The notes under the pieces: generated by a model
Database searches by the model: none
Told to the model about the DNA's origin: nothing
The model's input: the letters and a program-made list of their open reading frames with translations, nothing else
Part shown: in pieces, positions 1,278 to 63,649 of the stretch
Position numbering within the stretch: position 1 is the stretch's first letter
Layout of the letters: each line of letters begins with the position of its first letter
IMG/VR virus record: IMGVR_UViG_3300029305_003178
Location: 128,001-192,000 of that record
DNA length: 64,000 nucleotides
Direction: 5' to 3' (one strand)
Origin: a virus
Taxonomy: Duplodnaviria > Caudoviricetes
Program-made: the position numbers and the translations under genes

Positions 1278-1940
1278 ATGATCAAGATAGAATTAACTAA
1301 AAAATTTAAAAAGAAATTATATGATATAAATCAGGATATGAAAACATTATTTTTTAAATATAATATTTATCCTGATAATATTATTATATCTAATAATTTG
1401 GATATGCCTTCTTTTCATGGTGCTAAATTAATTGATAGAATTGATTTTCCAGATGAATTTGATAGCATTGTATTATCGTTACACTCTAGACAGATATATG
1501 ATGTTTATAGCGATCATAAATCTGAATTAGATTATATATTTTTGGTTAATGGATTTATTTATTTAGGTAATGATGAAACTAAATATGAGATAGGTTCTTA
1601 TTATAGTGAAGATGGGACGAATTCATTAAAATTTGTAGGACTTAAACAACACACTACAGAAATAATAAATGAATTTAATCCGACTATATCGCTCGATAGT
1701 GAAAAAATAGAGAAATTATATAAAGGGAGCCTTATTAAAATAGCACCAGAAAATAAAAAATATAAAACTAGATTAAGTAAAGGGGTAGTACCTGGGTTAA
1801 AAAAATCTAGTTTATTGGATATAGAATTTCACGACCATGAAGAGAATGATTTTCTATATTTTATAACACTAAGAAATACTAGAAACAAAGTATACACATA
1901 TCATGAAAGAATGTGTATAGTAATTAAAGCAAAGGATTAA
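1278..1940 (+). CDS. Hypothetical protein, translationally coupled to the DNA polymerase fragment
   Basis: About 220-aa ORF; AGGTGA RBS at ~1267 favours ATG 1278; followed by a terminator. Confidence 0.7.
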   Translation: MIKIELTKKFKKKLYDINQDMKTLFFKYNIYPDNIIISNNLDMPSFHGAKLIDRIDFPDEFDSIVLSLHSRQIYDVYSDHKSELDYIFLVNGFIYLGNDETKYEIGSYYSEDGTNSLKFVGLKQHTTEIINEFNPTISLDSEKIEKLYKGSLIKIAPENKKYKTRLSKGVVPGLKKSSLLDIEFHDHEENDFLYFITLRNTRNKVYTYHERMCIVIKAKD

Positions 1941-1955
1941 TTTCCTTTGCTTTTT
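1926..1955 (+). terminator. Intrinsic terminator
   Basis: AAAGCAAAGGA-ttaatt-TCCTTTGCTTT followed by a T run. Confidence 0.7.
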
Positions 1956-1991
1956 ATCCGTATTTTGAGAATTTTCGATTATATATTATTA
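1956..1991 (+). promoter_or_regulatory. Putative early phage promoter (CGTATTTT...TATATATTAT); 36-bp exact repeat of 9962-9997
   Basis: ATCCGTATTTTGAGAATTTTCGATTATATATTATTA is identical at both sites. Confidence 0.75.
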
Positions 1992-1992
1992 A

Positions 1993-2142
1993 TGTGATAT
2001 AAAGATAAGATTAAAATCTTTATATCATTTGTCATATACATATCTTCTACATATTGGAAAGGTAAGAATTGATGTGTAACATTTAAAAAACATATGTTTT
2101 TTAGTACAGGTGTATTTAGCGACTGCACCTGTATTTTTTTTT
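1993..2142 (+). ncRNA. Candidate early small structured RNA
   Basis: ORF-free unit between an early promoter motif and a terminator (TACAGGTG/CACCTGTA plus T9). Contains a 12-bp hairpin at 1995-2027, a second imperfect stem, and a 20-bp palindrome at 2084-2103. Confidence 0.5.
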
Positions 2143-2200: not shown

Positions 2201-4474
2201 TTGAAGGAAGTGATGAAATTGGCTAAGCAAAATACAAACACCAGAGGTGTTGAAAAAGAAATAATGGATTTAAATAAAACTAATGCTGATGTTATAGGTA
2301 AAATAAATCAGCAGGTTTATTATAAAGATACGGAACGACAAAAAGAATTAGAATATTTAGATTCTAAATTAGATAGAATTATCTCTAAAGAATTAAATAG
2401 CACCAAAAGTATTACATCGGATGAAATGTCTACTTTCATGGTTAAATTATTTAATGAAATGGATGATAATACTAATAAGAATATTAAATCCATTGAAGAT
2501 ATATTTAGCGGTGGCGAAAATCATTTAATGGAGTTTTTCCAGAATAGATATCAAAACTTTAATTTATTATATGAAGATCTCAAAATGGTCACACAACAGT
2601 TATCCGAATTAGAAGAAGCTGTTATGACCACTAGAGATGCTATTGTTACTACAGATGATATAAGTACTACAGTATCTAGAACTATTGAATTCTTACGGGA
2701 AAATAAAGATAATAGTGAGTATGGAACTTATATCAATACAGTAGAAGATTTAGAGGATAAACTAAAACTTCAGCAGAAATTAAAAAATATTATTATTCCA
2801 AATGTATTGACATATGGTAAATATTATACATATACAGTACCATATAAAAAACTTTTTGCTGATCATCATTATAGAAAAACTAAAGATTCTAAATATATGG
2901 ATAATTCAATTAAATCTAAAACCAAATCTTTATCAGAATCTATAAGTGATGATGCTGATTTTATTAAAGTTTTCAAAGAAGATCTTAAATCTATAGATTC
3001 TACAACAAATGTTAGTGAAAATACTATCAAGAAAACATTGACATCATATACGGAATCTATTCAAGTATCTAATGATGAAGTATCCATTCCTATATTAGAA
3101 GGATTAGATATCGATTCATTAATGGATTATGCAAAATTCAAATCATCTGTAGATAAAGCTACAAAAGATTTGAATAAAGAGATTAAAGCATCTCCAGATG
3201 GTCTTGCAGAAATGAAAGAATCTGAAAAGATGTTTGAAGATATTTCTGGTTGCTATATCAAATATATTGAACCAAAAAAATTAATTCCTATTGATTTATT
3301 AGATCATAGACTTGGCTATTATTATATGCATGATGTTGATTTTCAGGTAAATAAATCACCATTTGCAACTGCAATTACAGTATCTAATACAGCAGCAAAT
3401 CCTAAAATGCATGAAGATGTAGAAGCTATGTTTATGTCAAGAATTACAGATAAAATCGTTAAATCTTTTGATAAAAAATTCTTAGAAAATAATGCTAAGT
3501 TTAAAGATTTAATTCTTAATGCTCTTGTATATAATGATTTATATAAAAGAAATATTAGATTCCAATTTATTCCTGCAGAATATATTACAGAGTTTAAAGT
3601 TAATGAAGATGAAAATGGTGAAGGTAGATCCATTTTAATTAAATCTTTATTCTATGCTAAATTATATTTAGCATTATTAATTTTTAAAATGATCTCTATT
3701 ATTACTAGATCGAATGATACAAAAATTAACTATATTAAAAACTCTGGTATTGATTCCAATATTATTAACAGAACACAGGAAGTTGCTCGTGCCATAAAAG
3801 GACGTCAGATAAACTTCATGGATCTGTTAAACTACAACTCAATTATCTCTAAAATTGGTGCCTATAAAGAATTATTTATCCCTATGGGTAGAAATGGTGA
3901 TAGAGGTATTGAATTTGATATCTTATCTGGTCAGGATGTTCCTCTTAATACGGAATTAATGGAAATGTTAAGATCTAATATGATATCATCTACTGGTGTA
4001 CCATCTGTTATCATGAACTATGTAAATGAAGTAGATTTTGCTAAAACACTTGCAATGGCAAACTCTAAATTCGTAGGTCGTGTAATTTCTTTACAGATTG
4101 ACTGTAACGTGGGCACAACAGAATTTTATAAAAAAATTATGAAATTTTCTGATGTTAGTATACCTGATGATGTCATTGATAAATTCATATTTAAATTCAA
4201 TGCACCTAAGACATTGAATACTATGAATATGACAGATATGATCAATAATGCTGATCAGGTTGCATCTGCAGCAATTAAAGCTATTACAGGTGAAAATAGT
4301 GATCCTGATGGCGATGCAAATAAATTAAAAGATTTATTATACAATAAAATCATGAGAGATTTACTTCCTATGATGAATTGGGATTCTTTTGATAAAGCGT
4401 ATGAAGATGCTAAAATAGAATTAGCTAGATTAAAAGCGACACCTAAGAAAACAGAAGAATCTGACAGTTATTAA
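2201..4474 (+). CDS. Portal protein
   Basis: 757 aa with a T4 gp20-like C-terminal segment (LMEMLRSNMISSTGVPSVIMNY..EVDFAKTLAMANSKF); lies next to sheath/tube and has a late promoter. True start may be a few codons downstream. Confidence 0.7.
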   Translation: MKEVMKLAKQNTNTRGVEKEIMDLNKTNADVIGKINQQVYYKDTERQKELEYLDSKLDRIISKELNSTKSITSDEMSTFMVKLFNEMDDNTNKNIKSIEDIFSGGENHLMEFFQNRYQNFNLLYEDLKMVTQQLSELEEAVMTTRDAIVTTDDISTTVSRTIEFLRENKDNSEYGTYINTVEDLEDKLKLQQKLKNIIIPNVLTYGKYYTYTVPYKKLFADHHYRKTKDSKYMDNSIKSKTKSLSESISDDADFIKVFKEDLKSIDSTTNVSENTIKKTLTSYTESIQVSNDEVSIPILEGLDIDSLMDYAKFKSSVDKATKDLNKEIKASPDGLAEMKESEKMFEDISGCYIKYIEPKKLIPIDLLDHRLGYYYMHDVDFQVNKSPFATAITVSNTAANPKMHEDVEAMFMSRITDKIVKSFDKKFLENNAKFKDLILNALVYNDLYKRNIRFQFIPAEYITEFKVNEDENGEGRSILIKSLFYAKLYLALLIFKMISIITRSNDTKINYIKNSGIDSNIINRTQEVARAIKGRQINFMDLLNYNSIISKIGAYKELFIPMGRNGDRGIEFDILSGQDVPLNTELMEMLRSNMISSTGVPSVIMNYVNEVDFAKTLAMANSKFVGRVISLQIDCNVGTTEFYKKIMKFSDVSIPDDVIDKFIFKFNAPKTLNTMNMTDMINNADQVASAAIKAITGENSDPDGDANKLKDLLYNKIMRDLLPMMNWDSFDKAYEDAKIELARLKATPKKTEESDSY

Positions 4475-9961: not shown

Positions 9962-9997
9962 ATCCGTATTTTGAGAATTTTCGATTATATATTATTA
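9962..9997 (+). promoter_or_regulatory. Putative early phage promoter driving a small-gene operon
   Basis: Exact copy of 1956-1991; TATATATTAT at 9986-9995. Confidence 0.75.
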
Positions 9998-10084
9998 CCA
10001 TGAAAGAATAAAATAATATCAATATTTTATAACTTTCTATGATCCTATACATAATATTTTATGCAACAAGAAGGAGGAATTATT

Positions 10085-10348
10085 ATGACAATGATGGTAG
10101 TAGAAGAAAGAAGAAATAGAAGAGGGAATCTTACATTCCGGAGATACTCCAATGGATATGAGGAATATTGGAAGTATACAACGGAAGGATTCCTCAAATC
10201 TCACACAGACAATCGTGGATATGAAATGAAATATCCTGATTGTGATGTGATGGATCCCTGGGATAAGGATGTTAAAGAAGACGTCTTATCTAGGGAATAT
10301 GAAAACGATCTCGATGCTAAATACGGCATCATTAGAGATTTTAACTAA
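10085..10348 (+). CDS. Early hypothetical protein with short beta-hairpin (YD-like) repeats
   Basis: AAGGAGGA RBS before ATG 10085; RGNLTFRRYSNGYEEYWKY..G pattern. Confidence 0.7.
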   Translation: MTMMVVEERRNRRGNLTFRRYSNGYEEYWKYTTEGFLKSHTDNRGYEMKYPDCDVMDPWDKDVKEDVLSREYENDLDAKYGIIRDFN

Positions 10349-10370: not shown

Positions 10371-10586
10371 ATGTCACGAGCATACAATTATAACGTAAGA
10401 GAATTCCGGAGAATTCTCATCGATAATGGCTATGAGTTTAAACGACAAACTGGTAGCCATCAAATCTGGGTGCGTCCAGATGAACATGGGAATGATATGG
10501 ATGTAATCAACATTCCCGCAACAAGCATTAACGCAATGCTTGCAAGACGTGTTATTAAAGAGCACAAATTATATGTTTATAAATAA
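10371..10586 (+). CDS. hicA: HicA-family mRNA interferase-like protein
   Basis: 71 aa, REFRRILIDNGYEFKRQTGSHQIW...INIP; carries the HicA GSH motif; strong RBS. Confidence 0.8.
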   Translation: MSRAYNYNVREFRRILIDNGYEFKRQTGSHQIWVRPDEHGNDMDVINIPATSINAMLARRVIKEHKLYVYK

Positions 10587-35486: not shown

Positions 35487-35521
35487 ATCCGTATTTTAGA
35501 GTTATTTAAGTATATATTATT
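35487..35521 (+). promoter_or_regulatory. Putative early promoter
   Basis: ATCCGTATTTT-N13-TATATATTATT, same spacing as the 1956 and 9962 copies. Confidence 0.7.
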
Positions 35522-41272: not shown

Positions 41273-41304
41273 CGTTTTTTAAATATTTTTCAATTATATA
41301 TTAT
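41273..41304 (+). promoter_or_regulatory. Putative early promoter
   Basis: CGTTTTTT...TATATATTAT (41295-41304). Confidence 0.6.
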
Positions 41305-49739: not shown

Positions 49740-52700
49740 TTAATGTATTCCTTGTGCCACAGCTTTTGCTATAGCATATTTAGATTTAGTTTGTTCTTCC
49801 CTTCTTTGTTTAGCTATATCAAACATAGGATTCGAAGATACATTATTCGTATTAGCTACAACTGCAGTAGGAGCATTTTCTTTACTAGCAATTTTAGCTG
49901 TATTATCTGTTGTATTTCGTGTATTTGTAGCAATTTCTGTTAAAAGTGTTACAATCTTAACGATATTATCAACTACTGTAGTATCTGTACCAGATGTTTT
50001 TGCTGTAGCAGCTACAGTTTCAATAACATCACCTATACCACCAATACCATTATTAGCAAATTTATCTTTAAATAAGTCTTTAGGAGCAGTCATTACAAAT
50101 TTAGAATCTGGAATTCTACTTCCCACTTTAACCATTTGACCATCTAAGCCGCCTTGATTATGTGAAGCTTTTCTAGAATCATTATCATAAATTGTTCCAG
50201 TCTTAGAATATTTCTGATAATATCCTCTAGCGGCTTCAAGTCGTCTATCCATATGAGGTTTACCAGCTCGCTCAAAAGCACCTTCAAACTGTCTAGTGGC
50301 CATATCAACATCTGTAGAGCGTTTCCATTCAGCATATGTTGTAGGGACAGCACCAGCATTTGTAAGTGTTGAACCTGCTATATTTCCACCATATTTTATA
50401 TCATTTTTAAAATAGTAATCTAATGAACCTAATTCATTATGAATAAATTCTAACTGAGAACCAAGGTCTGTCCAATCTTTACCTTTCTTCTTAGCATAAT
50501 TACTCATATTTAACCATCTGCCAGCTTTATTTTTATAGCTTTCCCATTGTGCTATACCTGCGGCATGACCAGACCCATGTTGAATTGCAGCAGGGTTCAT
50601 ACCAGATTCAGCATAAAGGTTGCCCATAATACCAGCAGTAGCCTCTTTTGAATAACCATTCTGTGTGAAGAATTGCCATACCTTATCAGGTGTTTCCCCA
50701 TCAGGGAGATTTGTATTAATTGCTGTACTAACACCATCTGCTGATATAGATGTAGCATCTGCAGTAGTAGGTGCCGCTAAACCAGCCTGCGCTAGTACAT
50801 TATTCAATGTACTAGACATTACGTCTATAACAGTACTCATTCCAGTATCTACGCCTGTTGATGGATTAACTGTTGCAAATTCATCATCAGTATTTTCAGC
50901 TAATGCTAAATCAGGATTACCACTATCAAATCCTTCAATATATTTATTAGGATCTACATAATTACCATATTTTGATCCCATTACACTATAGTGTAAATGT
51001 GATCCAGTCGATCTACCGGTACTACCTTCTCTACCGATAGTATCACCTAATTCTACAGTATCTCCCTCTTTAACATCTATGCTATTCATATGAGCATAAA
51101 GATGGAGTTTACCATATTTATCTTTAACTATAACATTATTACCATAACCTCTACCTTTACCGCTAGGGGCATCATTTGTTGCTGGATCAATATGATTTGC
51201 TGCGATTACAGTTCCTGGAACAAATGCAGCAATTCTAGAACCTAATCCTCTAGCCATATCTACACCTTCATGACCACTAGGTTTGCCAGTAAAGGGGTCA
51301 TTACGGAAACCAAAATCAGATGTTAAGTGTTTTCTATAATTTTGATATTGAGATAATACTGCACCGCCTTGATGTTTTTTAGCAAATTTATTATATTCAG
51401 AATCAAAATCATCTAAGCTTATATCTTCTCTACCACCAAAATTAAATTTACTAGTAACCCAGTTCCAAACTTTAGAACCTGTTTTTTTAGCACCATCTAT
51501 AAAACCTGAAAAAGAGTCACCAATTTTTTCTACACCACCATTGAATTTTTCACCAATTCCAGTAAATAAATCAACTATAGGATCCCAGAAATCAGCAATT
51601 TTCTTTTCAACGTTAGTTTTAAATGTTTCCCATTTAGTTTGTATTTCTACAAATTTGTCATCTAAAGATTTAAATGCATTAGTAATAAAATCACCAGCAG
51701 TACCAGTAATATCAGAGAACCATTTACCTACAGAACCTAATGCTCTACCAACAACACTTGTAGTTTCAGTATTCTGTGTAATTGAATCATCCGCTCTACG
51801 AAGTACATCCATAAATCCAGGATCATTTCTAAGACTTTCATCTTCAACAAGCATTTGTTCTAACATAGCTTTTGTAGATTTAGCCTGAGCAAGTTTTTCT
51901 TCATCACCTTTACCACCAAATAACCATTTCTTAGCTTTAGATGCACCATCAACAACTTTTCCAAAGAATCCTTTGTTTTGCATATCATTGAATGCATCTT
52001 TACTATAATTACTTTGTGATGTAAGTGATGATATATCTGTATTAAGTTCATTCATAAACTCAGCATTATCTTTCAAACTAGGATCAGCTTTAAGCTGAGC
52101 TTGTTTTTCCCTAACTCTAGCAAAAGTAGCTCTATCTTCATCCGTACCAGATGCTGCAACTTGCACCATCACATCATCTTGATATTTAGAATTAAATTTC
52201 TGTTGAGCTACACTTATTGAAGGGTCATCTTCATCTGCTAAGCCAGAATATAACAATTCAGCAATAGTCTTAATAAAATCAAAACCGATTAAAGATTTAG
52301 TAATTTCATTAATCAATGCCACTAAACTACCCCATGATGAAGATGTGATACCTTTAACAATAGCAGAAACTGCTCTCATTTTCATTGTAACATCTTCCTG
52401 AGATACTTCAAATAAATTAGCTGCTTCAGATTTTGTTATACCTGTTGCAACACCATACGCCATAAATGCTATATCACCATAGATCATTAAGAATTTAGCT
52501 GAAGTTGCAGCTATTTTACCACTAAATTTAGCAAGTTTAACAGGATTCATAATACTAAGAATCTTACTAACTATAGATTTAAGTGTACTAAGGTGTTTAC
52601 CTTTAATATATTTACTCAAATATTTCTCTATAGATTTCATTACACTCTTAGCTGCATTAATGAATTTTGTTATAGTTGTTTCTTTAGCACCGGCTGTACC

Positions 52701-55700
52701 AGTAACTGCATTCTTAATACTATCTATTTTACCAACTACAGCATTTTTAATTTTCTGAGTTAATGGAACTCTTGTTGCGGCAGTTACACCTTCATCAGCT
52801 ACACTAACTGCAGATTGTCTAGCTTCACTAAGTATCTGTCTATCAGCTTTAAATCTAGTGAAAGCTTTATATTTATCACCAGCAATTCTAGCAGCATTTG
52901 TGACACCAGCAACGCCAGTTGCCTCCATAGCATCATAGTTTACTGATGTTGTGCCAGTTGCATCAGTTCTATCACCATCGTCGTCTTTAAGACCAAAAAT
53001 TTCTTTAATCTTACCAGACATCATATTTACAAGATTAGTAACAGCATCTCCAACTACCACACTTATATTAGTTATAGGATCTTTAAAGAATTTAAGTAAG
53101 AATGGAATAGCTAAAATGAGACCAGTTGTAATTAAACCTTTCTTACCAAAGATAGAAGCCCAGTTAAATTTATGCTCTTTACCATCATCCCTGATATCTT
53201 TAACGAAATTCTTCATTGTATTAAAGAATCCTGTACGTTCTTTTCTATCAGCTAACTCTGATGATATCTGTCTGTTATTAGCTAAATTCTGACTTCTTGC
53301 TTTAGCAATACTTTCAGCCATTTGCTGTTCTTTCTTAGCTTTAGCTTCTTCTTTTTTCTTTTTCTCAGCTTCTTCTTTATCATCATTTGTATCAAATACT
53401 TCTTGACCTTTAGTAACAGCTTTAGCTAATGTATCTACAGGAGCTTCAAGATCAGAAGAAATATCTTTCTTAGAATCAGATCTAACCAACTCTATTAATT
53501 TATCGAGTCTCTGATGTATACCATCATCATGTGTAAAAATAGAGCCTTTTTCACTACCAAGATCAGCTAAAGTTTTAACAGATTTTCTTGTTTCTTCAGC
53601 TATTTCCACATCATTTTCTAACATTGCTGTCACATCTGATGTTTTTTGAGATATAGTATCGAGATTTTCATGATTGTCTCTATCCATCTTAACTCTACTT
53701 TTTTCTATAGAATCTGCATTTGTATATGCTTTACCATATTCATTTTTAAGAGCTTTTTCTTCTTCTTTTCGTTTAGCTCTTTCCAATTTTCTCTGTTCTT
53801 TAGAACTTAATTCTGATGTAACATCTTTATTATATTTATTTTTCTTAGCTTCTGCTTGTTTATTTCTAAGATTTTCTTCATCTTGATCAAGGAATGCATT
53901 TCTAACATCACTACGATATTCCGAATCTGATATAAGTTTATTCTTTTTATCGAGCATTTCTTTAGCATATCCTGCACCTTCAGGTGAATACTGCATGCTT
54001 CGTCTAGTTGCACCAGGTAAGTAAGATGCAGCAAGCATTTTAAGAAGTTCACCACTAGATTCATACTCACCGTCTCTTATTCTATCAAGAATATTTTCAT
54101 CGGCACCTTTTCTAGCAGCTCTATCTCTTAAAGAACCTCTAGCCATACCCATTAACTGGAATGGTAATGCGATTGCTTTAAATGGTGTTGTTATTGCAGC
54201 TGATACCATTTTAAGTGTTAATTTACCAAAGCCCATCATTGCTTTACCAAGCAATCCAAATGTACCTTGAATCAGTTTCTTAGTAAACCCAAATAAATCA
54301 GATACGCCATTTCTAATAAATGTGAATGCTGGTTTAACTACACCTTGTACAATAGGATTATCGACTAATCTTCGCTTAATTTCATCTTTAATTAATCCTC
54401 TATAATGTGTCAAACCTTCTTTAATATGTCTTTGATATAATCTTTCAGAAACAGAAGATAATATTTTTACAGGGAATTCAAGTACTTTACCAAATACACT
54501 AGCAGTTTTTTCTATCATGAACTTACTAACAGATTTGAATAAAGGAATTGGATTAAGTTTTTTAACAAAATCTTTTAATACTTGCAAACCTGGAAGATTA
54601 GCAATAGTATCTTTAACAGTTTCACCAAGCTCTTTAAGTCTAATACCTATTCTAGAAAATTCTTCTTTAATAGGTACCATTGCAATACTAAATGGTGTAG
54701 CAATTTTCTCATCAAACCAGTTCTGTATATTGGTAGTCCATTTAGACATAGTAAATTTAAATGGTTCTAAAACTTCCATTTGTAAATAGTTGCCAAATCT
54801 ACCAAATATACCACCATCTTTAGTCACATTACCATTAGCATCAAACTCAGCTTTACCGAATAAGAAATCTTTCCATTTATCCGATGTTAATAAAATACCA
54901 GTTGCAGCACCAGTGATTGCAAGAGCCATTGGATTAATAGCTAAGCTACCTAATAAACCAAATGAACCCAATCCTTTACCGAGAATCATACCACCAATGC
55001 CACCAACAGCACCAGCACCAAATTTAAGTTTATGGGCTGTCATGAATGATTTACCAAGTTCTGCACCTGCTTTAACTATACCTGCATTACCAACAGTTTC
55101 TTTAGCACCAAAGAGCATATTTTTAAATGACTCTGATCTAAGAAGTAATGCTGTAGCAATACCTGTTAATGCACCTGTGATTGGTCCACCTAAAATAAAT
55201 GAAGGTAAAATACCAAAGCCTAAACCACCAGAAATAGCACCAATAGTACCACCACCGATAATATTAACTTTGTTAGCTGCCAAGAAGTCTTGTGCACCTT
55301 TACTAATAAATCCACCTATTCTAGCATTAGTTTTAGCATCCATTGGACCAAATAACCAATCTTTGAATCTTTCAGACTGTGATAAGAAACCACCTGTGAT
55401 ACCCAATACTGCACCAGACATAGGGCCTAAGAACATGGAACCTAAAATACCAAATCCACCAGCACTAGCTAGTAAACCAGCACCACCAGCAAGTAAACCT
55501 ACTGCCAATGCTTTAGGTAATGCGTTCTTAACTTTTTCAGTAAAGTCACCGACATTAAACGCAGATACTTTTTCTCCAGCTTTATCTTTCATACCAAATA
55601 TAGCATCTAACCATACTTGGCCACCTTCATATAAAGTATCTTTAATATTTCCTAAAAATCCTTTACCTTTATCTTTAAGACCTTCTTTATCATTAGTGCC

Positions 55701-58361
55701 GAAAATATATTCTGCCATAGTATCTTTAAAACTTATAAGATGTTTTTTAAAGATACCAAAAACACTATTTTCTTTATCACCCTTAATTTCATTACCATCT
55801 TTATCTTTAAAATCTTTACCAGTGAAGTAACTTATAAAACGATTACCCATTTCTTTCATATTATTAAATACGTCGGAGAATAAGCCACCTTCTCTATAAC
55901 CTCCCTCACCTTCACCTTTTTTACCAAAAGTAAAATCGAATCCTTTACCAAAGATTTCTTTAAATTTTTCCCATTGTTTACTATTCTGAATTTTAGTAAT
56001 CAGGCCCTCTTCACCAAAGAGTTTTTCATCAGCTTTAGTTAAGAAAGAATCTAATTTGCCTCTAATCCAATCCATACCATCACCGAATTTATCACCAATG
56101 AACTCAAATATGGATTTAGGATCTTTATCAGTTCTAGTTTTACTAGGGAAAATAATATTAAATAAACCTTCATCAAGCTTATCAATAAATTTTTCAGCTA
56201 TTTTTGCAGGAGCTTGTAACAGTCCATGAATATGTTGAAAAATGCTTTTTTTCTCAATAACATCTTTTTTAGAATTAATAAATCCTTCCACAGACTTATC
56301 ATCTGTTGGAGTAAAGTTTATTGTTTTCTTCTCATATTCAGCGATTCTTTCACGAAGTTCATCTTCATCCATATTATAAAGATCATCAAGACTTTCAACA
56401 GATGTAATACCTCGTTCTTCGTTAGTTTTTTTAGCAAGTTCACGATCTTTTTTAAGTTGCTCCTGCCAATCTCTATATTTCTTTTTCTCATCATCTGTCA
56501 TATCTGCATACTCTTTTGTTTTCCATGTATCTAATGACGATGATAAAGAATATCCAGAACTAGATCTATCTTTATAAAGTTCATTATGAACCATAGATCC
56601 ATCATTATTAATTTGAGCATCTCTAAAGAAATCTGTTCTAGCCTCTCTAGCCTCAAATTTATCTCTACCAAACAGATTCATCAGTTCATTACGTTTTAAT
56701 AAACTTAAAGTAGTTCTAAATAACTTCTGTTCATCATCTGTCAAGTCATCGAATACTTCAGCAAGAGAGTTTTTAGTATCAGGATCATCTGGATCAAAAT
56801 CTCTAGGATTTATAAACATATCAGAATTAGTATATCTTAAAAATCCCTTTCTGATTTTATCCTTTAATGGATCTAATGCATTATCATTACCTTCAACCTT
56901 ACCAAAATTCAGTAAATCAAATACTTTATCTAATCCTTCATAAGACGATAAAATAGTTCTTTTACGATCTTCTTCAAATCTTTCTGTTAATGCATCTACT
57001 GTAGTAAATACGCCACGATTATAATCAAATGTTAATCGTTCAGTATCACCATTTAAAGCACTTAAGATTTTACTTAAATAACCAGGAATTACTTCAACGA
57101 TAGATTTTCTTGTTATACCGTCAAAATCAACTTTCCCTCTTTCGAAATCTGCCGTATTTACCATGGTTTTAATCTCTTGATTATACCCAAAGATTTCACC
57201 AAGAGTTTGTAATAAAATATTTGAACTTCCTTTAAGTCCATCAACCTTACCAAGCAATGCAGGGAAGAATGCACCTAAAGTTTTATCAAATGCTCCTGCA
57301 GTACTACGCAAATTTTTAGGAAGAATTGATGACATCAACATTCTCGGAATAAATGCTAATGGATTAGCAGCCAGCTGCTCAAAACCACCACTTTCCTTAA
57401 ACATGCTTAAACTACTTAACAGGAAGTTATTACTTGTCCATCGTTTAGTATTTCGTCGTACCATATCGGCGTAACCCTTAATATTAATAGCACCTGTGCT
57501 ATAATCATAAGGATCATCGTACATTGGTCCATCATCAATATCTTCTTTTTCAGCATTAAATTTACGTAATTCTTCTAATACATCACGTTTTAAAGTTAAT
57601 GCTTCTTCATAATATGCTAATGATGCAGAAGTAAACTTAGAAATAGTATCACCATTGAATTCAAGTAATCTACCTAAGTTTTCATTAATTACACCTAAAT
57701 GCTCACCAATACCATAAATCATTTTCTGATTTATAGCCAATGACGCACCATGTAATTTAATATCTCTATTAGCAGTATCTTTTGCTATATTAACCATTAA
57801 GTCAGTCTGTGAAGAAACAGCTCTGACCATTGGATTATCACCATTAATATTACTAGATAAACTAATTTTTGGAGTAACACTTACATTAACTTCAGGTCTT
57901 TCAGAATCATCATCATAACCAGAAGATTCGATATCTTCATCAATATCAAAATCATCCATAGACCAATTATCGTCATTATCAAGGTCATCCATATTAAAAT
58001 CGTCCATACCCATGCTTTTAGCCATAATAGCATCAGCACGTTCTTTATTATAAAATTTACCTGATTTTAGGTCTTCTTTAATATTAGCTTTTGCTGCAGA
58101 TCCATAGATCAGATAGTCATCTATACTATCACCGACCATTTTACGTAAAACTGCATTCATATTTCTTTGTTTAGAAACTGCTTTAATATCAGCTATAGTT
58201 TCTTTAACATAAGATGCATTACTTTTAAAAGTATCTGTTGTTGCAGGCATTACGTCATGCATAACATCGGCTGCTGCATATCCTAGTGACTTAGCCACAT
58301 TAGCAAACCATCTATTATCAGATAATGTTTTTTTATTAACCTTTGATGGAGTCTTAGCCAT
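49740..58361 (-). CDS. Tape measure protein with C-terminal M23 peptidase and phage tail lysozyme domains
   Basis: 2873 aa, helical with Gly-rich hydrophobic blocks; M23 HEGVD..YAHM..STGSHLHY; lysozyme GYSKEATAGIMGNLYAESG..GIAQW..FERAG; late motif at 58390-58401. Confidence 0.85.
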   Translation of the reverse strand: MAKTPSKVNKKTLSDNRWFANVAKSLGYAAADVMHDVMPATTDTFKSNASYVKETIADIKAVSKQRNMNAVLRKMVGDSIDDYLIYGSAAKANIKEDLKSGKFYNKERADAIMAKSMGMDDFNMDDLDNDDNWSMDDFDIDEDIESSGYDDDSERPEVNVSVTPKISLSSNINGDNPMVRAVSSQTDLMVNIAKDTANRDIKLHGASLAINQKMIYGIGEHLGVINENLGRLLEFNGDTISKFTSASLAYYEEALTLKRDVLEELRKFNAEKEDIDDGPMYDDPYDYSTGAINIKGYADMVRRNTKRWTSNNFLLSSLSMFKESGGFEQLAANPLAFIPRMLMSSILPKNLRSTAGAFDKTLGAFFPALLGKVDGLKGSSNILLQTLGEIFGYNQEIKTMVNTADFERGKVDFDGITRKSIVEVIPGYLSKILSALNGDTERLTFDYNRGVFTTVDALTERFEEDRKRTILSSYEGLDKVFDLLNFGKVEGNDNALDPLKDKIRKGFLRYTNSDMFINPRDFDPDDPDTKNSLAEVFDDLTDDEQKLFRTTLSLLKRNELMNLFGRDKFEAREARTDFFRDAQINNDGSMVHNELYKDRSSSGYSLSSSLDTWKTKEYADMTDDEKKKYRDWQEQLKKDRELAKKTNEERGITSVESLDDLYNMDEDELRERIAEYEKKTINFTPTDDKSVEGFINSKKDVIEKKSIFQHIHGLLQAPAKIAEKFIDKLDEGLFNIIFPSKTRTDKDPKSIFEFIGDKFGDGMDWIRGKLDSFLTKADEKLFGEEGLITKIQNSKQWEKFKEIFGKGFDFTFGKKGEGEGGYREGGLFSDVFNNMKEMGNRFISYFTGKDFKDKDGNEIKGDKENSVFGIFKKHLISFKDTMAEYIFGTNDKEGLKDKGKGFLGNIKDTLYEGGQVWLDAIFGMKDKAGEKVSAFNVGDFTEKVKNALPKALAVGLLAGGAGLLASAGGFGILGSMFLGPMSGAVLGITGGFLSQSERFKDWLFGPMDAKTNARIGGFISKGAQDFLAANKVNIIGGGTIGAISGGLGFGILPSFILGGPITGALTGIATALLLRSESFKNMLFGAKETVGNAGIVKAGAELGKSFMTAHKLKFGAGAVGGIGGMILGKGLGSFGLLGSLAINPMALAITGAATGILLTSDKWKDFLFGKAEFDANGNVTKDGGIFGRFGNYLQMEVLEPFKFTMSKWTTNIQNWFDEKIATPFSIAMVPIKEEFSRIGIRLKELGETVKDTIANLPGLQVLKDFVKKLNPIPLFKSVSKFMIEKTASVFGKVLEFPVKILSSVSERLYQRHIKEGLTHYRGLIKDEIKRRLVDNPIVQGVVKPAFTFIRNGVSDLFGFTKKLIQGTFGLLGKAMMGFGKLTLKMVSAAITTPFKAIALPFQLMGMARGSLRDRAARKGADENILDRIRDGEYESSGELLKMLAASYLPGATRRSMQYSPEGAGYAKEMLDKKNKLISDSEYRSDVRNAFLDQDEENLRNKQAEAKKNKYNKDVTSELSSKEQRKLERAKRKEEEKALKNEYGKAYTNADSIEKSRVKMDRDNHENLDTISQKTSDVTAMLENDVEIAEETRKSVKTLADLGSEKGSIFTHDDGIHQRLDKLIELVRSDSKKDISSDLEAPVDTLAKAVTKGQEVFDTNDDKEEAEKKKKEEAKAKKEQQMAESIAKARSQNLANNRQISSELADRKERTGFFNTMKNFVKDIRDDGKEHKFNWASIFGKKGLITTGLILAIPFLLKFFKDPITNISVVVGDAVTNLVNMMSGKIKEIFGLKDDDGDRTDATGTTSVNYDAMEATGVAGVTNAARIAGDKYKAFTRFKADRQILSEARQSAVSVADEGVTAATRVPLTQKIKNAVVGKIDSIKNAVTGTAGAKETTITKFINAAKSVMKSIEKYLSKYIKGKHLSTLKSIVSKILSIMNPVKLAKFSGKIAATSAKFLMIYGDIAFMAYGVATGITKSEAANLFEVSQEDVTMKMRAVSAIVKGITSSSWGSLVALINEITKSLIGFDFIKTIAELLYSGLADEDDPSISVAQQKFNSKYQDDVMVQVAASGTDEDRATFARVREKQAQLKADPSLKDNAEFMNELNTDISSLTSQSNYSKDAFNDMQNKGFFGKVVDGASKAKKWLFGGKGDEEKLAQAKSTKAMLEQMLVEDESLRNDPGFMDVLRRADDSITQNTETTSVVGRALGSVGKWFSDITGTAGDFITNAFKSLDDKFVEIQTKWETFKTNVEKKIADFWDPIVDLFTGIGEKFNGGVEKIGDSFSGFIDGAKKTGSKVWNWVTSKFNFGGREDISLDDFDSEYNKFAKKHQGGAVLSQYQNYRKHLTSDFGFRNDPFTGKPSGHEGVDMARGLGSRIAAFVPGTVIAANHIDPATNDAPSGKGRGYGNNVIVKDKYGKLHLYAHMNSIDVKEGDTVELGDTIGREGSTGRSTGSHLHYSVMGSKYGNYVDPNKYIEGFDSGNPDLALAENTDDEFATVNPSTGVDTGMSTVIDVMSSTLNNVLAQAGLAAPTTADATSISADGVSTAINTNLPDGETPDKVWQFFTQNGYSKEATAGIMGNLYAESGMNPAAIQHGSGHAAGIAQWESYKNKAGRWLNMSNYAKKKGKDWTDLGSQLEFIHNELGSLDYYFKNDIKYGGNIAGSTLTNAGAVPTTYAEWKRSTDVDMATRQFEGAFERAGKPHMDRRLEAARGYYQKYSKTGTIYDNDSRKASHNQGGLDGQMVKVGSRIPDSKFVMTAPKDLFKDKFANNGIGGIGDVIETVAATAKTSGTDTTVVDNIVKIVTLLTEIATNTRNTTDNTAKIASKENAPTAVVANTNNVSSNPMFDIAKQRREEQTKSKYAIAKAVAQGIH

Positions 58362-59461: not shown

Positions 59462-59496
59462 GTGAATATGAATAATACGAGATTATTCATATTCAC
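59462..59496 (-). terminator. Terminator downstream of the RNAP beta gene
   Basis: GTGAATATGAATAAT-acgag-ATTATTCATATTCAC, 15-bp stem with T5 on the minus strand. Confidence 0.65.
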
Positions 59497-59521
59497 AATT
59501 CATCATAATAATATATATTTA

Positions 59522-62500
59522 TTATTCGTTATAAATTTCTTCTAAATGACGTTTTAATTCAATAAGAACTTTATTTGCAAACATCGTATAGATGATTGAT
59601 GGAGTCATACGAGCTAATACGGCATTTGGACTTAGGAATGCAGATACTTCTTCATTTGGTCTATATTCGGAATAGGGCTCATAACCTTCTGGAACTACTT
59701 CACCAATGATAGATTTTAAGGCACTAAAGAAAGTTATTTTGTCACCTACAGTAAGGACATCTCGATATTTAATATAGAATTCGATTAATACACCATCAAA
59801 TAACTCTCTACCTTTAATCTTACCATTTGTACCTGGTTCTAATTTCTTAGTACTTTCTGTAATCATCATACCTGCTTTAACAATACTATCTGTTTTATCA
59901 TATTTATTAAGCAGATTCTTTTTCTTATTGATTTTGCCATAATATTGTGTTACTAATCTTCTAAGACTAGGAGATAGTTCATCTAATTCAACTGAAGTAT
60001 AGATTTTAATATCTTCAATAACACCAGCATATTTAGTTTTAATAGGATATTTACCTAAAGACTTAATCTCATCAATAGCTAAATCATCACCAATGTCTGC
60101 TAAGAATTTATTGTATACATCATTATCAAATGATGTTTCATATTCAATGAGGACATCGTCAACTTTAACAACATCACCAATATTTACCATATTAGAGATA
60201 TTAGCATTTTTACCTATAACAACATCTTTCATCATAATAATATCAGATGCCATTTCCTCAGACATTTTCTTAGTAACATATGTAGAGTCTTCATATGTAA
60301 TATAAGAAGACATGATAGCAATTTTCTGCATAGAACCGATGTTAAAACGATTACCATGAAGAGTTTCATTACTAAAGAATTTATTTTCATATGCTACAAT
60401 ATCATTAGCTTTTACCTTATCTCCAACCTTTAAATCACATTGTAATTGATTGGATAAATAAAAACCTGAGTCAGAGTTTTTAACAATTCTTGGTTTAATG
60501 TCAATTGCTTTATGGGTACCATCATTATAAGCAATAACAGCAATACCAACATCTTCATTTATTTCTACAATTTTACCATCCTTTTCAGCTCTTACAATAA
60601 AGTCATCGGACAGATATTGTTGGATTACCTGCTCAGCACCATTGGAAATAAGTACTGGAGAAGATTTTGCAACTGGAACTGTGTGCTTTGACTGCTTCGC
60701 TGCCATTGCTGTACGTGATGAGTCATCGTGTGTAATACCCATAGTAGTCAGAAGCTCGGAAGGAGAAAATAAATTAACATCGGACAGTTCATTGATTTTA
60801 TCATCATTAATATCAATAAAACCTCTCGCATTTTTAACATTAGGTTCCATTGTAAGGAATCTAGAAACACCTACATTACCATCAGGTGATGTATTGATTG
60901 CTAAGATACCGGCCATAGTTTTATCATAAGTTCTCTTATCGAGAGTATATGCTTCAGACACGTTTAAACCATTATAGCCCTTATAGGTAATAGCTCTCGT
61001 CTTTTCCAATTCATATATTGGATTTAATGTAGAAATTGATTCTACTGTCTGTAAAGCCATTAATTCTTTAATAACAGCATTTCTAGGCATAGAAATTTTA
61101 ATTGGATTTTTATTATATGCTGTTGCTTTGTATTTACCATAAGCATTAGCTAATTCTTTATAGAACAGAGCATTTACAACTTCATTCGATCTAATTCTAT
61201 AAAGATTCATATTGTTTTCTCTAATATATTTATTATCACCGAGCAATACATTTGCACATAATACAACACTAACGAAATCAGTAGGATAGTCTAATTCTTC
61301 TAATACTTCTTTAGTAATTGGATCTATCATAAAATCGTAGAATGTATCAAATGCGTTTGCTAAGTTTCTAGCACTATATAAAATATCAAATAATTCCACA
61401 TATGTATTTTTATCATCGAAGTCAGCATAATTATAAGATTTTGTGGGTAAATATAATAATGCATTTAATAATAAAGAATTTTCAATGGGATATCTATCGA
61501 ATACGAGATAACCATCAGCAAATTCAACATATGTTTCATTATCGGATACTTTTGGTCTAGTATCTGAGAAATAATGTCTAACATTACCTTTTTTCAATAC
61601 AGTAGATAAGCCCTCACAATAACCAACTAACAGGACTATAGGAACCTTCTTACCCATTACTGTTGCTCTACTATACATAAATTTCTTTGTAGTAACATCA
61701 GTTTCTTCATAAGTTTTCTGGAAAGATGGATCCATAATAGATACAATATAATCAATCATATCCAATTCACCAATCTTTTCAGTTTTTTTATCTAATAAAA
61801 TAGGTTTTTCACCTTTAAGAAAACCTATACAAATTTTATCATCTGGAATCTTAGTTGATCCTAATCTATCATGGATATCTTTCTGGTTAAAAATAATTTC
61901 GTTACCATTAGATTTAATACTATTGATAGATTGAGAAATATCATCATATTCTAAAGTTGTATTATAATTGAAGTTGATCTCGGATGCATCACCCATCAGT
62001 ACTTTAACTTTAGGATTAGTCGCAGATAAAGCTTTTTTAAATCTCTCTGCTTTAGGAGTTAATTTTGCACCAATTCTATAAATAAAGATTTTATTATAGT
62101 TAGTACAAATCTGAACTTCATCTGGACCAGTTTTACAAATTGGTTTCATAAACAGCTGTTTATTAATAATTTTTCTATTACCATCAATATATAAGAATTT
62201 ATCATCAACGAACTTAGGAATATCTACAACTACTGTATGTCTAACTCTATTAGCATCTTCGAGTTTAATTGTATATGTATCCATATAATTCAATTCATCA
62301 GAACTATCTTTAATATCGATATCTAATACATAAACTGGAATAGATTTATCATTTAAAGCCGTGATAGAGTTGACGAAGTCCTGCTTCATTAATTTGTCAT
62401 TATATTCTTTCTCAAACTTATTAAATCTAATTTTTGTAGCATTAGGATTAGTGGTAGTTACCTTAGATGAAATGTCTGTAACTGGAAGTGGTTTACTATT

Positions 62501-63649
62501 ATCCATCTTCTTAATATCACCTAAAGTTTTACCTTCTAATTTAATCTTTTGCTGTTTTTTCTTTAGCTCTTCATCACGTTTAAGAGATGCTGTTGTCTTA
62601 CCAGTAGATTTAACTTGTTGAATATTGTATATATCTGATAATAACTCATTATCAACTTCAATCTCATCATCATCGATATCCAATTCTTTCTTAAGTTCTT
62701 CTTTCTCATTTTTAAGAACTTCAGTTTTATCTATATTCTTCTCAGCTATTTTACTAGCAATTTTCTCTTCTTTTGGTACTTCTTTTAATGTATCTGGTGT
62801 TATAGCTATAACATCATTTTCATCAGATTTTTTATTTTTTTCATCTGATTTTGTACCAGTAAAATTATACTCTGGAGCAATAGTTGTGACTATTTTATCC
62901 TTTAACTCAGATTTAGTTAATTCTTTTTCAAAAGTTTCTTCATCATCTAAATTAATATGTTTGAGTATAGTATTTAGTCTCTGCTTAAAAATAGGAAAAT
63001 CTTTTTCTTCACATTTAGATGGATTGAATCTAAATATGCTATCTGTTGTATATAAAAAGATTTCTTTATCCCCAAGCTTTTTAAATGTATCAAAATATTT
63101 TTTATATGCTGTAAAAATATAAATAATTGGATTATCAATTTTATTAAACTTCATCCAACTATCAATATTAATAAAAATAAATTTATTATTATATGATGAT
63201 ACAATCTGATTAGACATGATTTTATTAAAATAATTAATATACTCTTCAATCTTTCTTTTCATTGAAGGTACCTTAATATATTTAAAGAAAATCTGATTAT
63301 ATACAGAAATATCATAATATAAATTCTTATGATTAATTACATCAAATCTCATAGGAGTCTGTAATCCATATTTTGTTGAAATCTGTTTATATAATACTTT
63401 TCTACTATCTTTATAATCAAGTCTAACTTGCTTATTTACAATCTTTTCAAAGTATTTTGCATCAATATAATAATTTCTATAATATCTTCTAGGGTTTATT
63501 AATTTATTTCCGATAAGTAATGAAATATCCTTAGTATCATTATTATTTAAGATAATAAGATTATCTTTATTACTATCATCGGAGGCATCAGGCATCCATA
63601 CACCTAATTTATATACCTTCAAATAAGGTATTTCGTTAATATATAACAT
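59522..63649 (-). CDS. Multisubunit RNA polymerase beta-like subunit (probably virion RNAP; lacks the beta C-terminus)
   Basis: FLYIDGNRKIINKQL, TSPDGNVG, DDSSRTAMAAKQSKHTVPV, TYEDS, VGDKIT..LKSIIG, VLARMT; late motif at 63678-63689. Confidence 0.9.
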   Translation of the reverse strand: MLYINEIPYLKVYKLGVWMPDASDDSNKDNLIILNNNDTKDISLLIGNKLINPRRYYRNYYIDAKYFEKIVNKQVRLDYKDSRKVLYKQISTKYGLQTPMRFDVINHKNLYYDISVYNQIFFKYIKVPSMKRKIEEYINYFNKIMSNQIVSSYNNKFIFINIDSWMKFNKIDNPIIYIFTAYKKYFDTFKKLGDKEIFLYTTDSIFRFNPSKCEEKDFPIFKQRLNTILKHINLDDEETFEKELTKSELKDKIVTTIAPEYNFTGTKSDEKNKKSDENDVIAITPDTLKEVPKEEKIASKIAEKNIDKTEVLKNEKEELKKELDIDDDEIEVDNELLSDIYNIQQVKSTGKTTASLKRDEELKKKQQKIKLEGKTLGDIKKMDNSKPLPVTDISSKVTTTNPNATKIRFNKFEKEYNDKLMKQDFVNSITALNDKSIPVYVLDIDIKDSSDELNYMDTYTIKLEDANRVRHTVVVDIPKFVDDKFLYIDGNRKIINKQLFMKPICKTGPDEVQICTNYNKIFIYRIGAKLTPKAERFKKALSATNPKVKVLMGDASEINFNYNTTLEYDDISQSINSIKSNGNEIIFNQKDIHDRLGSTKIPDDKICIGFLKGEKPILLDKKTEKIGELDMIDYIVSIMDPSFQKTYEETDVTTKKFMYSRATVMGKKVPIVLLVGYCEGLSTVLKKGNVRHYFSDTRPKVSDNETYVEFADGYLVFDRYPIENSLLLNALLYLPTKSYNYADFDDKNTYVELFDILYSARNLANAFDTFYDFMIDPITKEVLEELDYPTDFVSVVLCANVLLGDNKYIRENNMNLYRIRSNEVVNALFYKELANAYGKYKATAYNKNPIKISMPRNAVIKELMALQTVESISTLNPIYELEKTRAITYKGYNGLNVSEAYTLDKRTYDKTMAGILAINTSPDGNVGVSRFLTMEPNVKNARGFIDINDDKINELSDVNLFSPSELLTTMGITHDDSSRTAMAAKQSKHTVPVAKSSPVLISNGAEQVIQQYLSDDFIVRAEKDGKIVEINEDVGIAVIAYNDGTHKAIDIKPRIVKNSDSGFYLSNQLQCDLKVGDKVKANDIVAYENKFFSNETLHGNRFNIGSMQKIAIMSSYITYEDSTYVTKKMSEEMASDIIMMKDVVIGKNANISNMVNIGDVVKVDDVLIEYETSFDNDVYNKFLADIGDDLAIDEIKSLGKYPIKTKYAGVIEDIKIYTSVELDELSPSLRRLVTQYYGKINKKKNLLNKYDKTDSIVKAGMMITESTKKLEPGTNGKIKGRELFDGVLIEFYIKYRDVLTVGDKITFFSALKSIIGEVVPEGYEPYSEYRPNEEVSAFLSPNAVLARMTPSIIYTMFANKVLIELKRHLEEIYNE

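What the first reader, a model, noticed from the sequence alone, without database searches (positions are those of the whole stretch)
1956..2142. Early promoter driving a protein-free, multi-hairpin ~150-nt unit
Seen: an exact 36-bp copy of the promoter that drives the HicA operon sits just after a terminator, but no gene follows it. Instead there is a perfect 12-bp hairpin (1995-2027), an imperfect stem (TACATATC/GATGTGTA), a 20-bp palindrome TAAAAAACATATGTTTTTTA (2084-2103) and a terminator with T9. The portal gene beyond it has its own late promoter. Inference: an early small RNA, for example an anti-defence decoy, an RNA antitoxin, or a replication primer next to the DNA polymerase gene.
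Basis: partly seen in the sequence, partly recalled or inferred. Interest (0 to 1): 0.75.

Follow-up and report, generated by a model that had tools for sequence, protein, structure and literature searches.

The report
ORF-less early RNA unit, jumbo phage
A giant gut phage related to Bacillus phage AR9 carries, just before its portal gene, a complete promoter-to-terminator unit that should make a roughly 147-base non-coding RNA early in infection, but only this one phage lineage has it and nothing yet shows that the RNA does anything.

Summary
Positions 1956-1991 are an exact 36-nt copy of the promoter of the HicA operon (9962-9997). The 5' hairpin, the 20-bp palindrome, the T9 terminator and the absence of any credible ORF are all real. 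Only the imperfect middle stem is at chance level.

The window lies in a 227-kb, 29% GC phage that encodes its own split RNA polymerase. Its promoters follow the published AR9 rules. The early core TATATATTAT-N6-G puts the start at G1996. AACA-N6-TA (2172-2183) is the late promoter of the portal gene.

The predicted RNA runs from G1996 to the U-tract at 2135-2142, about 147 nt. It begins with a hairpin exactly at +1, as 11 of this phage's 34 early leaders do.

The unit is a young, lineage-specific insertion. A 76%-identical relative, about 45 further relatives and four near-complete relative genomes lack it. The only sequenced copy outside this record is 100% identical, so no covariation test is possible.

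No Rfam family, related sequence, TIGR spacer match or RNA target was found. Its leader aligns collinearly with the HicA-operon leader at 66% identity, down to a degenerate ribosome site and an ATG.

It is therefore either a young accessory small RNA or a neutral leftover of a duplicated early cassette. Interest is modest. The scan had also noted this same stretch from another window.

The parts
1926..1955 (+). Intrinsic terminator of the early DNA polymerase/g223 operon. It overlaps the g223 stop codon and only five T follow the GC core.
   Evidence: -14.4 kcal/mol, z -6.1. Homologous terminators sit at the same place in relatives.
1956..1995 (+). Early promoter, presumed to be read by the virion RNA polymerase. 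Upstream element CCGTATTTT at 1958-1966, core TATATATTAT at 1980-1989, then 6 nt to the start.
   Evidence: Exact 36-nt copy at 9962-9997. There are 14 class members in the genome and 34 exact cores followed by G. The AR9 early consensus is AAATATATATTAT-(6N)-G+1 (PMC5312081).
1996..2026 (+). Predicted transcription start G1996 and a 5'-terminal hairpin (11 bp, 9-nt loop).
   Evidence: -8.7 kcal/mol, z -3.9. Eleven of 34 early leaders start with such a hairpin, against 1.0 +/- 1.1 in shuffles.
2027..2083 (+). AU-rich middle section. It holds the chance-level stem 2037-2044/2071-2078, the degenerate SD-like GGAAAGG (2056-2062) and a 4-codon frame (ATG 2072 to TAA 2084-2086).
   Evidence: z -0.8. 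Collinear with the HicA-operon leader, with the ATG aligned to the ATG of that operon's first ORF.
2084..2103 (+). Perfect 20-bp palindrome TAAAAAACATATGTTTTTTA. As RNA it is a weak 8-bp A-U hairpin directly in front of the terminator.
   Evidence: -3.4 kcal/mol, z -3.0.
2104..2142 (+). Intrinsic terminator: stem 2104-2114/2124-2134, 9-nt loop, T-run 2134-2142. Predicted 3' end of the RNA.
   Evidence: -13.7 kcal/mol, z -4.3. AR9 RNA-seq shows strong termination at predicted terminators (PMC5312081).
2172..2183 (+). Late promoter AACA-N6-TA of the portal gene, with predicted start A2183.
   Evidence: Matches the AR9 late consensus. Present within 120 nt upstream of the portal gene in 43 of 45 distinct loci from other lineages.
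2213..4474 (+). Portal gene (753 aa). It is context only, not part of the unit.
   Evidence: PHROG 3004 virion structural protein. A family profile matches PHIKZ129, chain 9xpe_M with 12 chains in the entry, at E 7e-6.
9962..10087 (+). Paralogous promoter (36/36 identical) and leader of the HicA operon. This is the probable source of the unit's 5' part.
   Evidence: HicA_toxin Pfam hit for 10371-10583.

Best explanation
The stretch is a complete, ORF-less early transcription unit of an AR9-like jumbo phage.

How it is made (inferred from AR9):
- The virion RNA polymerase enters the cell with the DNA and recognises CCGTATTTT-N13-TATATATTAT-N6.
- It starts at G1996 and stops at the hairpin plus U-tract at 2104-2142.
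- The product is an RNA of about 147 nt.
- The first 31 nt fold into a hairpin that begins exactly at +1. A third of this phage's early transcripts share this design. In Gram-positive hosts a 5' hairpin is known to protect RNA from 5'-end-dependent decay, so the RNA should be stable and abundant from the first minutes.

Where it came from:
- The unit is a recent insertion into the T-run between the DNA polymerase operon's terminator and the portal gene's late promoter.
- Its 5' part derives from the HicA-operon promoter, and probably from that operon's leader too.

What it most likely does:
- It is a young accessory non-coding RNA derived from a duplicated 5' untranslated region, co-expressed with the HicA operon.
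- As a side effect its terminator backs up the now weakened upstream terminator, which keeps the portal gene strictly late.

Shown here: promoter class membership, the terminator, the absence of an ORF, the insertion status and the paralogy of the promoter.
Inferred only: actual transcription, RNA stability and any function in trans.
For: The phage and its promoter rules:
- The genome is a 227,229-bp virus record that encodes split RNAP beta and beta' homologues.
- The core and the G at +1 match the AR9 early consensus, and the late motif matches AACA-(6N)-TA/G.

The promoter class is functional:
- Of the 34 exact cores, about 28 have a Shine-Dalgarno-led ORF starting 16-83 nt downstream.
- The identical copy heads the HicA operon.

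This unit specifically:
- It is the only early core with a terminator before any gene, apart from one core that sits directly on the 1375-aa gene's own terminator.
- Structure is z -4.5 overall, with a strong 5' hairpin and terminator.
- 5' hairpins at +1 are a class feature: 11 of 34 leaders against 1.0 in shuffles.
- The same phage uses the same promoter subclass for other non-coding products: TIGR array 2 at genome 114,467(-) and the roughly 340-nt RNA at 55,392(+).

Insertion status.

A contig from a further metagenome sample, for which no DNA could be fetched, has a gap of the same 272-nt length with no gene called in it.
Against: - No expression data exist.
- The unit is missing from every relative examined, so there is no conservation and no covariation. 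The one sequenced copy outside this record (L002) is 100% identical from 1738 to about 3490, so it says nothing about selection.
- No Rfam family was found. The 27-bit L20_leader hit rests only on the terminator and the AT-rich run before it.
- No target stands out. The best duplex with phage translation-start regions equals the shuffle level (-26.8 against -26.7 +/- 2.4).
- The middle stem is at chance level.
- The three bases before the core are GAT, not AR9's AAA. AR9's polymerase is reported to be sensitive to single changes, although 5 of the 14 class members here have GAT.
- Collinearity with a protein-coding leader, including an SD-like site and an ATG, fits a decayed gene start just as well.
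Confidence: 0.5

Rival explanations
1. The unit is a neutral relic. Illegitimate recombination or a duplication copied the promoter, leader and start codon of the HicA operon (or of another early accessory-gene cassette) into this intergenic hot-spot, and the ORF was lost or never came along. It may be transcribed, but the RNA has no selected function.
For: - The promoter is a 36/36 copy of the HicA-operon promoter.
- The leaders are collinear: 59 of 90 alignment columns are identical, and the pair ranks 2nd of 561 leader pairs (z 2.7).
- The SD-like GGAAAGG and ATG 2072 align with the SD and ATG of the operon's first ORF. The frame stops after 4 codons.
- The unit is absent from all relatives, so it is dispensable.
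- The same junction holds two inserted small genes in L030, which marks it as an insertion hot-spot.
Against: - The leader similarity is only moderate, and part of it is a class-wide initial transcribed sequence (GA[A/T]ATAAAGA).
- The 3' half (palindrome and terminator) matches nothing in the genome, so no source cassette can be named.
- All three strong stems are perfect, whereas the SD-like site is already degenerate.
- The phage demonstrably uses early promoters for non-coding RNAs.
Confidence: 0.35
2. The unit acts in cis at the DNA or transcription level. It could be a second terminator or insulator that keeps early transcription out of the late portal gene. The palindromes at +1 and at 2084-2103 could also be operator sites for a dimeric DNA-binding protein that shuts the early promoter off.
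For: - The insertion left the upstream terminator with only five T, against eight in L073, and the unit supplies a T9 terminator just before the late promoter.
- The perfect 12-bp inverted repeat overlaps the transcription start.
- About 0.7 perfect 20-bp palindromes are expected by chance in the whole genome.
Against: - Relatives manage with a single terminator and no promoter here.
- An insulator does not need its own strong early promoter.
- Hairpins at +1 occur in 11 early leaders with different sequences, which argues for an RNA-level role rather than a shared operator.
Confidence: 0.1
3. The unit is a transcription-primed replication origin, built like the T4 or T7 origins (a promoter followed by an AT-rich unwinding element), next to the DNA polymerase gene.
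For: - Promoter followed by 27% GC DNA with A6/T6 tracts.
- It lies 680 bp downstream of the DNA polymerase gene.
Against: - It is absent at the syntenic site and anywhere else in four near-complete relative genomes, which must also replicate.
- The cumulative GC skew peaks at about 114 kb and shows no inflection at 130 kb.
- A strong terminator ends the transcript.
Confidence: 0.03

Closest known systems
Early (virion RNA polymerase) transcription units of Bacillus phage AR9 (Lavysh et al. 2017, PMC5312081)
   Same: - The core TATATATTAT-N6-G(+1) is the same.
- The genome has the same two-class grammar, with late AACA-N6-TA promoters.
- The phage encodes its own split multisubunit RNA polymerase.
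- Operons end at intrinsic terminators.
   Different: - An extra upstream element, CCGTATTTT, marks 14 of the promoters here.
- The three bases before the core are GAT rather than AAA.
- This unit carries no ORF.
- The word search of the AR9 paper found no mention of small or non-coding RNAs.
Other ORF-less early units of the same phage: TIGR guide array 2 (genome about 112.9-114.5 kb, minus strand) and the roughly 340-nt early RNA at genome 55,392 (plus strand)
   Same: - The same CCGT[A/T]TTT-type early promoter.
- No credible ORF.
- An own terminator.
- The 55,392 RNA also begins with a hairpin at +1.
   Different: - There are no TIGR repeats in this unit, and no in-register spacer of arrays 1 and 2 matches it.
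- It has no C-rich or anti-SD loop.
- Earlier notes of this scan report that relatives keep a counterpart of the 55-kb RNA. This unit has none.
Small RNAs reported or predicted in virulent phages (phiKZ dRNA-seq, PMC8244752; PA5oct, PMC7318152)
   Same: Short non-coding transcripts defined by their own start and terminator in large lytic phages, with function unknown.
   Different: Those cases rest on RNA-seq. In phiKZ the one predicted 75-nt sRNA was not confirmed by Northern blot. The unit here is predicted from sequence alone, and there is no sequence similarity to any of them.
5'-terminal stabiliser hairpins of Gram-positive mRNAs
   Same: A stable stem that begins at or within a few nucleotides of +1.
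   Different: Here it heads an RNA with nothing to translate. The host's RNases are unknown because the host is unknown.
Type III toxin-antitoxin RNA antitoxins (ToxI-like)
   Same: A phage-associated structured non-coding RNA with its own promoter. An orphan toxin-like gene (HicA) is driven by the identical promoter 8 kb away.
   Different: - The unit has no tandem repeats.
- No toxin gene lies directly downstream.
- HicA belongs to type II systems, which have protein antitoxins.

Membership tests
AR9-type early (virion RNAP) promoter | Core ATATATATTAT-like element with a G start 6 nt downstream | tested here: met
   TATATATTAT at 1980-1989, N6 at 1990-1995, G1996. Consensus taken from PMC5312081.
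AR9-type early (virion RNAP) promoter | AAA immediately upstream of the core | tested here: not met
   GAT at 1977-1979. Five of the 14 members of the CCGTATTTT subclass share GAT, including the copies before the HicA operon and the 149-aa and 348-aa ORFs, so the local rule seems to differ.
AR9-type early (virion RNAP) promoter | The phage encodes its own multisubunit RNA polymerase | tested here: met
   RNA_pol_Rpb2_6 hit (E 8e-25) and RNA_pol_Rpb1_2 hit (E 1e-9) in the same record.
AR9-type early (virion RNAP) promoter | Transcription at 5 min that is independent of protein synthesis | not testable with these tools
   This is an uncultured metagenomic phage with no RNA data.
Independent small non-coding RNA gene | Own promoter and own intrinsic terminator with no ORF between them | tested here: met
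   The only SD-like start opens a 4-codon frame.
Independent small non-coding RNA gene | Conservation or covariation of the structure in relatives | tested here: not met
   The unit is absent from L073, from about 45 distinct related loci and from four whole relative genomes. The only other sequenced copy is 100% identical.
Independent small non-coding RNA gene | A detectable discrete transcript | not testable with these tools
   No transcriptome is available.
Rfam RF00558 L20_leader | Score at or above the gathering threshold, with the L20-binding helix present | tested here: not met
   27.1 bits against 58.7. Forty-four model positions that hold the binding domain are deleted, and only the terminator and the AT-rich run align.
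Type III antitoxin RNA (ToxI-like) | Tandem direct repeats processed by an adjacent toxin | tested here: not met
   No direct or tandem repeat lies inside 1996-2142. The next gene is the portal gene.
TIGR guide RNA or a target of the phage's TIGR arrays | Paired 9-nt repeats at 18-nt spacing, or an in-register spacer match | tested here: not met
   No repeat A or repeat B pair in the unit, and no in-register spacer of arrays 1 and 2 matches 1940-2212. The third array was not parsed.
Promoter-primed phage replication origin (T4 oriF or T7 primary-origin type) | Presence at the syntenic site in related phages, or a skew or replication signal | tested here: not met
   Absent in relatives. There is no skew inflection at 130 kb, although skew is a weak test in phages.

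The most novel reading that the evidence does not exclude
The RNA could be a mimic of the HicA-operon 5' untranslated region. It has the same promoter, the same +1 hairpin design and a collinear leader, so it would be made in step with the operon mRNA. It could then soak up whatever binds or cuts that leader: a host RNase, a defence sensor, or the phage's own orphan HicA RNase. In effect it would be an RNA buffer or antitoxin for a HicA that has no recognisable HicB. Both the HicA gene and the unit are missing from four related genomes, which is compatible with joint gain, but that amounts to a single evolutionary event.
Probability: 0.08. Interest if true: 0.7.

Novelty: new member of a known kind. 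Interest (0 to 1): 0.3.

Why it matters
Small RNAs of virulent and jumbo phages are barely charted. An early RNA made by the injected virion polymerase would act before any phage protein exists. This phage now has at least three ORF-less early units: a TIGR guide array, a roughly 340-nt RNA and this one. AR9-like gut phages may therefore use their first wave of transcription for RNA products as well as proteins.

Two by-products are useful for annotating the hundreds of related gut jumbo phages:
- the CCGTATTTT promoter subclass;
- the strong enrichment of hairpins beginning exactly at +1.

The unit itself is a singleton with no evidence of function, so its own weight is small.

Tried and rejected
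- Rfam: nothing at gathering scores over the whole window. Permissive scans gave only a terminator-driven partial L20_leader match and a weaker PyrR match. ARAGORN found no tRNA or tmRNA.
- Related sequences: blastn against 50,697 phage records gave only chance-level short hits. The best fell on promoter-like AT-rich DNA of phiR1-37 and a Bacillus jumbo phage. blastn-short and nhmmer against the whole genome and all loci found only the unit itself and L002.
- Exact-pattern scans: two patterns against IMG/VR found nothing. The hairpin pattern against JGI metagenomes gave four unrelated chance hits, and against 185,579 species genomes gave none. The hairpin is therefore not a copy of a bacterial repeat or CRISPR repeat at that stringency.
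- TIGR link: 9-mer matches in my '198-kb array' turned out to lie in coding DNA, a false parse. In-register spacers of arrays 1 and 2 do not match the unit.
- Target search: duplex energies of the whole unit against 299 phage start regions are dominated by long loopy pairings. The single-stranded core against 211 start regions gave a best value equal to the shuffles. The 18-of-20 complementarity to portal mRNA at 3417-3436 has a BLAST E-value of 7.
- Replication origin: cumulative GC and AT skew follow gene orientation, with the maximum at 114 kb.
- Promoter remnant in L073: its 35-nt spacer is not significantly similar to the promoter (p 0.54). The only match is to the flank just after the terminator.
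- Analogous ORF-less early units near the portal gene of relatives: none among 18 exact early cores in about 800 kb of loci.
- Minus-strand ORFs 1979-2128 and 2025-2147: no SD and no promoter, so I dismissed them from reading the sequence. They were not searched for homologues.

Full report
**What the window is.** The window is bases 128,001-192,000 of a single 227,229-bp virus record with 29% GC. CheckV estimates it at 92% complete. The record encodes homologues of RNA polymerase beta (E 8e-25) and beta' (E 1e-9). It also encodes a family B DNA polymerase, a tail sheath and a tail tube. The gene after the finding (2213-4474) belongs to a large family from jumbo-phage contigs of about 200-260 kb. 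A profile of that family matches PHIKZ129, a chain present 12 times in entry 9xpe, at E 7e-6. Calling it the portal gene is therefore reasonable. Genes use strong AAGGAGG ribosome sites, and one family member is filed under Romboutsia ilealis. That suggests a host among the Bacillota, but the host is not established.

**The observation.**
- The 36-nt identity 1956-1991 = 9962-9997 is exact, with 0 matches expected by chance.
- The copy sits 2 nt after the terminator of the DNA polymerase/g223 operon (1926-1953, -14.4 kcal/mol).
- The hairpin at 1995-2027 has a perfect 12-bp stem. The genome holds 68 perfect stems of 12 bp or more, against 0-2 in Markov shuffles. Most of the others are terminators.
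- Folded one at a time, the 5' hairpin (z -3.9), the palindrome (z -3.0) and the terminator (z -4.3) beat shuffles. The imperfect stem TACATATC/GATGTGTA does not (z -0.8).
- The whole unit folds at -38.9 kcal/mol, z -4.5.
- No credible ORF exists. The only SD-like site (GGAAAGG, 2056-2062) precedes ATG 2072 and a stop four codons later. The 36-aa frame from 2094 has no SD and runs through the terminator and the late promoter.

**The promoter grammar.**
- A genome-wide search found 14 copies of CGTATTTT-N13-TATATATTAT.
- It also found 34 exact TATATATTAT-N6-G cores. About 28 of these have an SD-led ORF starting 16-83 nt downstream.
- The AR9 transcriptome paper defines early promoters as AAATATATATTAT-(6N)-G(+1), read by the injected virion polymerase. 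It defines late promoters as AACA-(6N)-TA/G, and it reports strong termination at predicted terminators (PMC5312081).
- The core here fits the early rule and puts the start at G1996.
- AACA (2172-2175), six bases, then TA (2182-2183) fits the late rule.
- The late motif lies within 120 nt upstream of the portal gene in 43 of 45 distinct loci from other lineages, where about 0.1 per locus is expected by chance.
- The unit is therefore an early promoter and a terminator wedged in front of a conserved late gene.

**The predicted RNA.** It runs from G1996 to the U-tract at 2135-2142, about 147 nt. Its first 31 nt form an 11-bp hairpin that starts at +1. This is not special to the unit. Eleven of 34 early leaders, including the HicA-operon leader, begin with a hairpin at +1 (dG of -5 or lower), against 1.0 +/- 1.1 in shuffles with a maximum of 5. 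I read it as a generic 5' stabiliser of this phage's early transcripts. That reading is an inference from what is known about 5'-end-dependent RNA decay in Gram-positive bacteria.

**Evolution.**
- Contig L002 carries the unit, but it is 100% identical from 1738 to about 3490. It then drops to 55-80% identity inside the portal gene, which marks a recombination mosaic. It therefore says nothing about selection.
- A contig from a further sample, for which no DNA could be fetched, has a gap of the same 272-nt length with no gene called in it.
- The next relative, L073 (76% portal identity), has the same g223 terminator and the same late-promoter region. Only 35 unrelated bases lie between them.
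- Relatives at 61% identity and below have a terminator followed directly by the late promoter.
- Four near-complete relative genomes contain the unit nowhere. The positive control on the own genome was found.
- The unit is therefore an insertion of about 180 bp into the T-run. It leaves five T behind the old terminator and nine T behind the new one.
- L030 has two small genes inserted at the same junction, so this is an insertion hot-spot.

**Origin of the inserted DNA.**
- The promoter is a copy of the HicA-operon promoter.
- Downstream of it the two leaders stay collinear. Fifty-nine of 90 alignment columns are identical, and the pair ranks second of 561 early-leader pairs (z 2.7).
- The unit's SD-like site and ATG align with the SD and ATG of the operon's first ORF.
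- Part of the similarity is a class-wide initial transcribed sequence, which also matches early leaders of relatives.
- The 3' half has no counterpart anywhere.
- The contrast between a 36/36 promoter and a 66% leader points two ways. Either the promoter was recently homogenised by recombination among the 14 promoter repeats, or the promoter was fused recently to older or unrelated sequence.

**Function.**
- Nothing identifies a function. There is no Rfam family, no related sequence and no TIGR repeat or spacer match.
- No target stands out above shuffles, and there is no replication signal.
- In favour of an RNA product: the same promoter subclass drives two other ORF-less early units in this genome. 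These are TIGR array 2 and the roughly 340-nt RNA at 55,392 (earlier notes seen).
- In favour of a relic: the collinearity with a coding leader and the complete absence from relatives.
- HicA is also absent from the four relative genomes. HicA and the unit are thus both lineage-specific accessories, but that is one event, not a correlation.

**Verdict.**
- The general reading, an early protein-free RNA unit, is supported by the promoter and terminator grammar.
- My estimate is about 0.75 that a discrete early RNA is made. That splits into roughly 0.4 that the RNA has a selected function and 0.35 that it is a neutral by-product of a duplicated early cassette start.
- It is a new, singleton member of a known kind (phage small-RNA candidates) and is of modest interest.

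Noticed in passing
Whole genome. In the window: 1958-1966, 9964-9972, 35489-35497 and 41273-41280: An upstream element CCGTATTTT (variants CGTTTTTT, CGTATTTA), 13 nt before the TATATATTAT core, marks a subclass of 14 early promoters. The subclass includes those of the HicA operon, TIGR array 2 and the 55-kb early RNA. The AR9 consensus has no such element.
   Followed up: partly
Genome-wide early leaders. In the window: TSS 1996, 10002 and 27332: Eleven of 34 predicted early transcripts start with a hairpin exactly at +1, against about 1 in shuffles. This looks like a built-in 5' stabiliser, or a signal linked to the virion polymerase.
   Followed up: partly
window 59462-59517 (minus strand): An exact early core TATATATTAT-N6-G sits right after the stop of the 1375-aa gene. 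It is followed at once by that gene's 15-bp terminator hairpin and TTTTT. It is either a spurious core or a transcript of about 45 nt that is only a hairpin.
   Followed up: no
window about 3490, inside the portal gene: There is a sharp mosaic breakpoint. Contig L002 is 100% identical to the window from 1738 to about 3490 and only 55-80% identical beyond it, so recombination has occurred inside the portal gene.
   Followed up: partly
L030:4132-5001: A relative carries two small SD-led genes, plus a long non-coding stretch, inserted at the same junction between g223 and the portal gene.
   Followed up: no
window 10371-10586, compared with relative genomes G001-G004: The HicA homologue has no counterpart in four near-complete related jumbo-phage genomes. 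The positive control on the own genome worked.
   Followed up: partly
G000:C1:55392-55740 (outside the window; locus L080): An early promoter is followed by a GC-richer RNA of about 340 nt with a terminator and no credible ORF (-81.9 kcal/mol, z -2.8). It has no Rfam match. Other agents of this scan have already followed it up.
   Followed up: partly
window 49740-58361 (minus strand) and 59522-63649 (minus strand): Two very long ORFs of 2873 and 1375 aa. I did not examine them.
   Followed up: no
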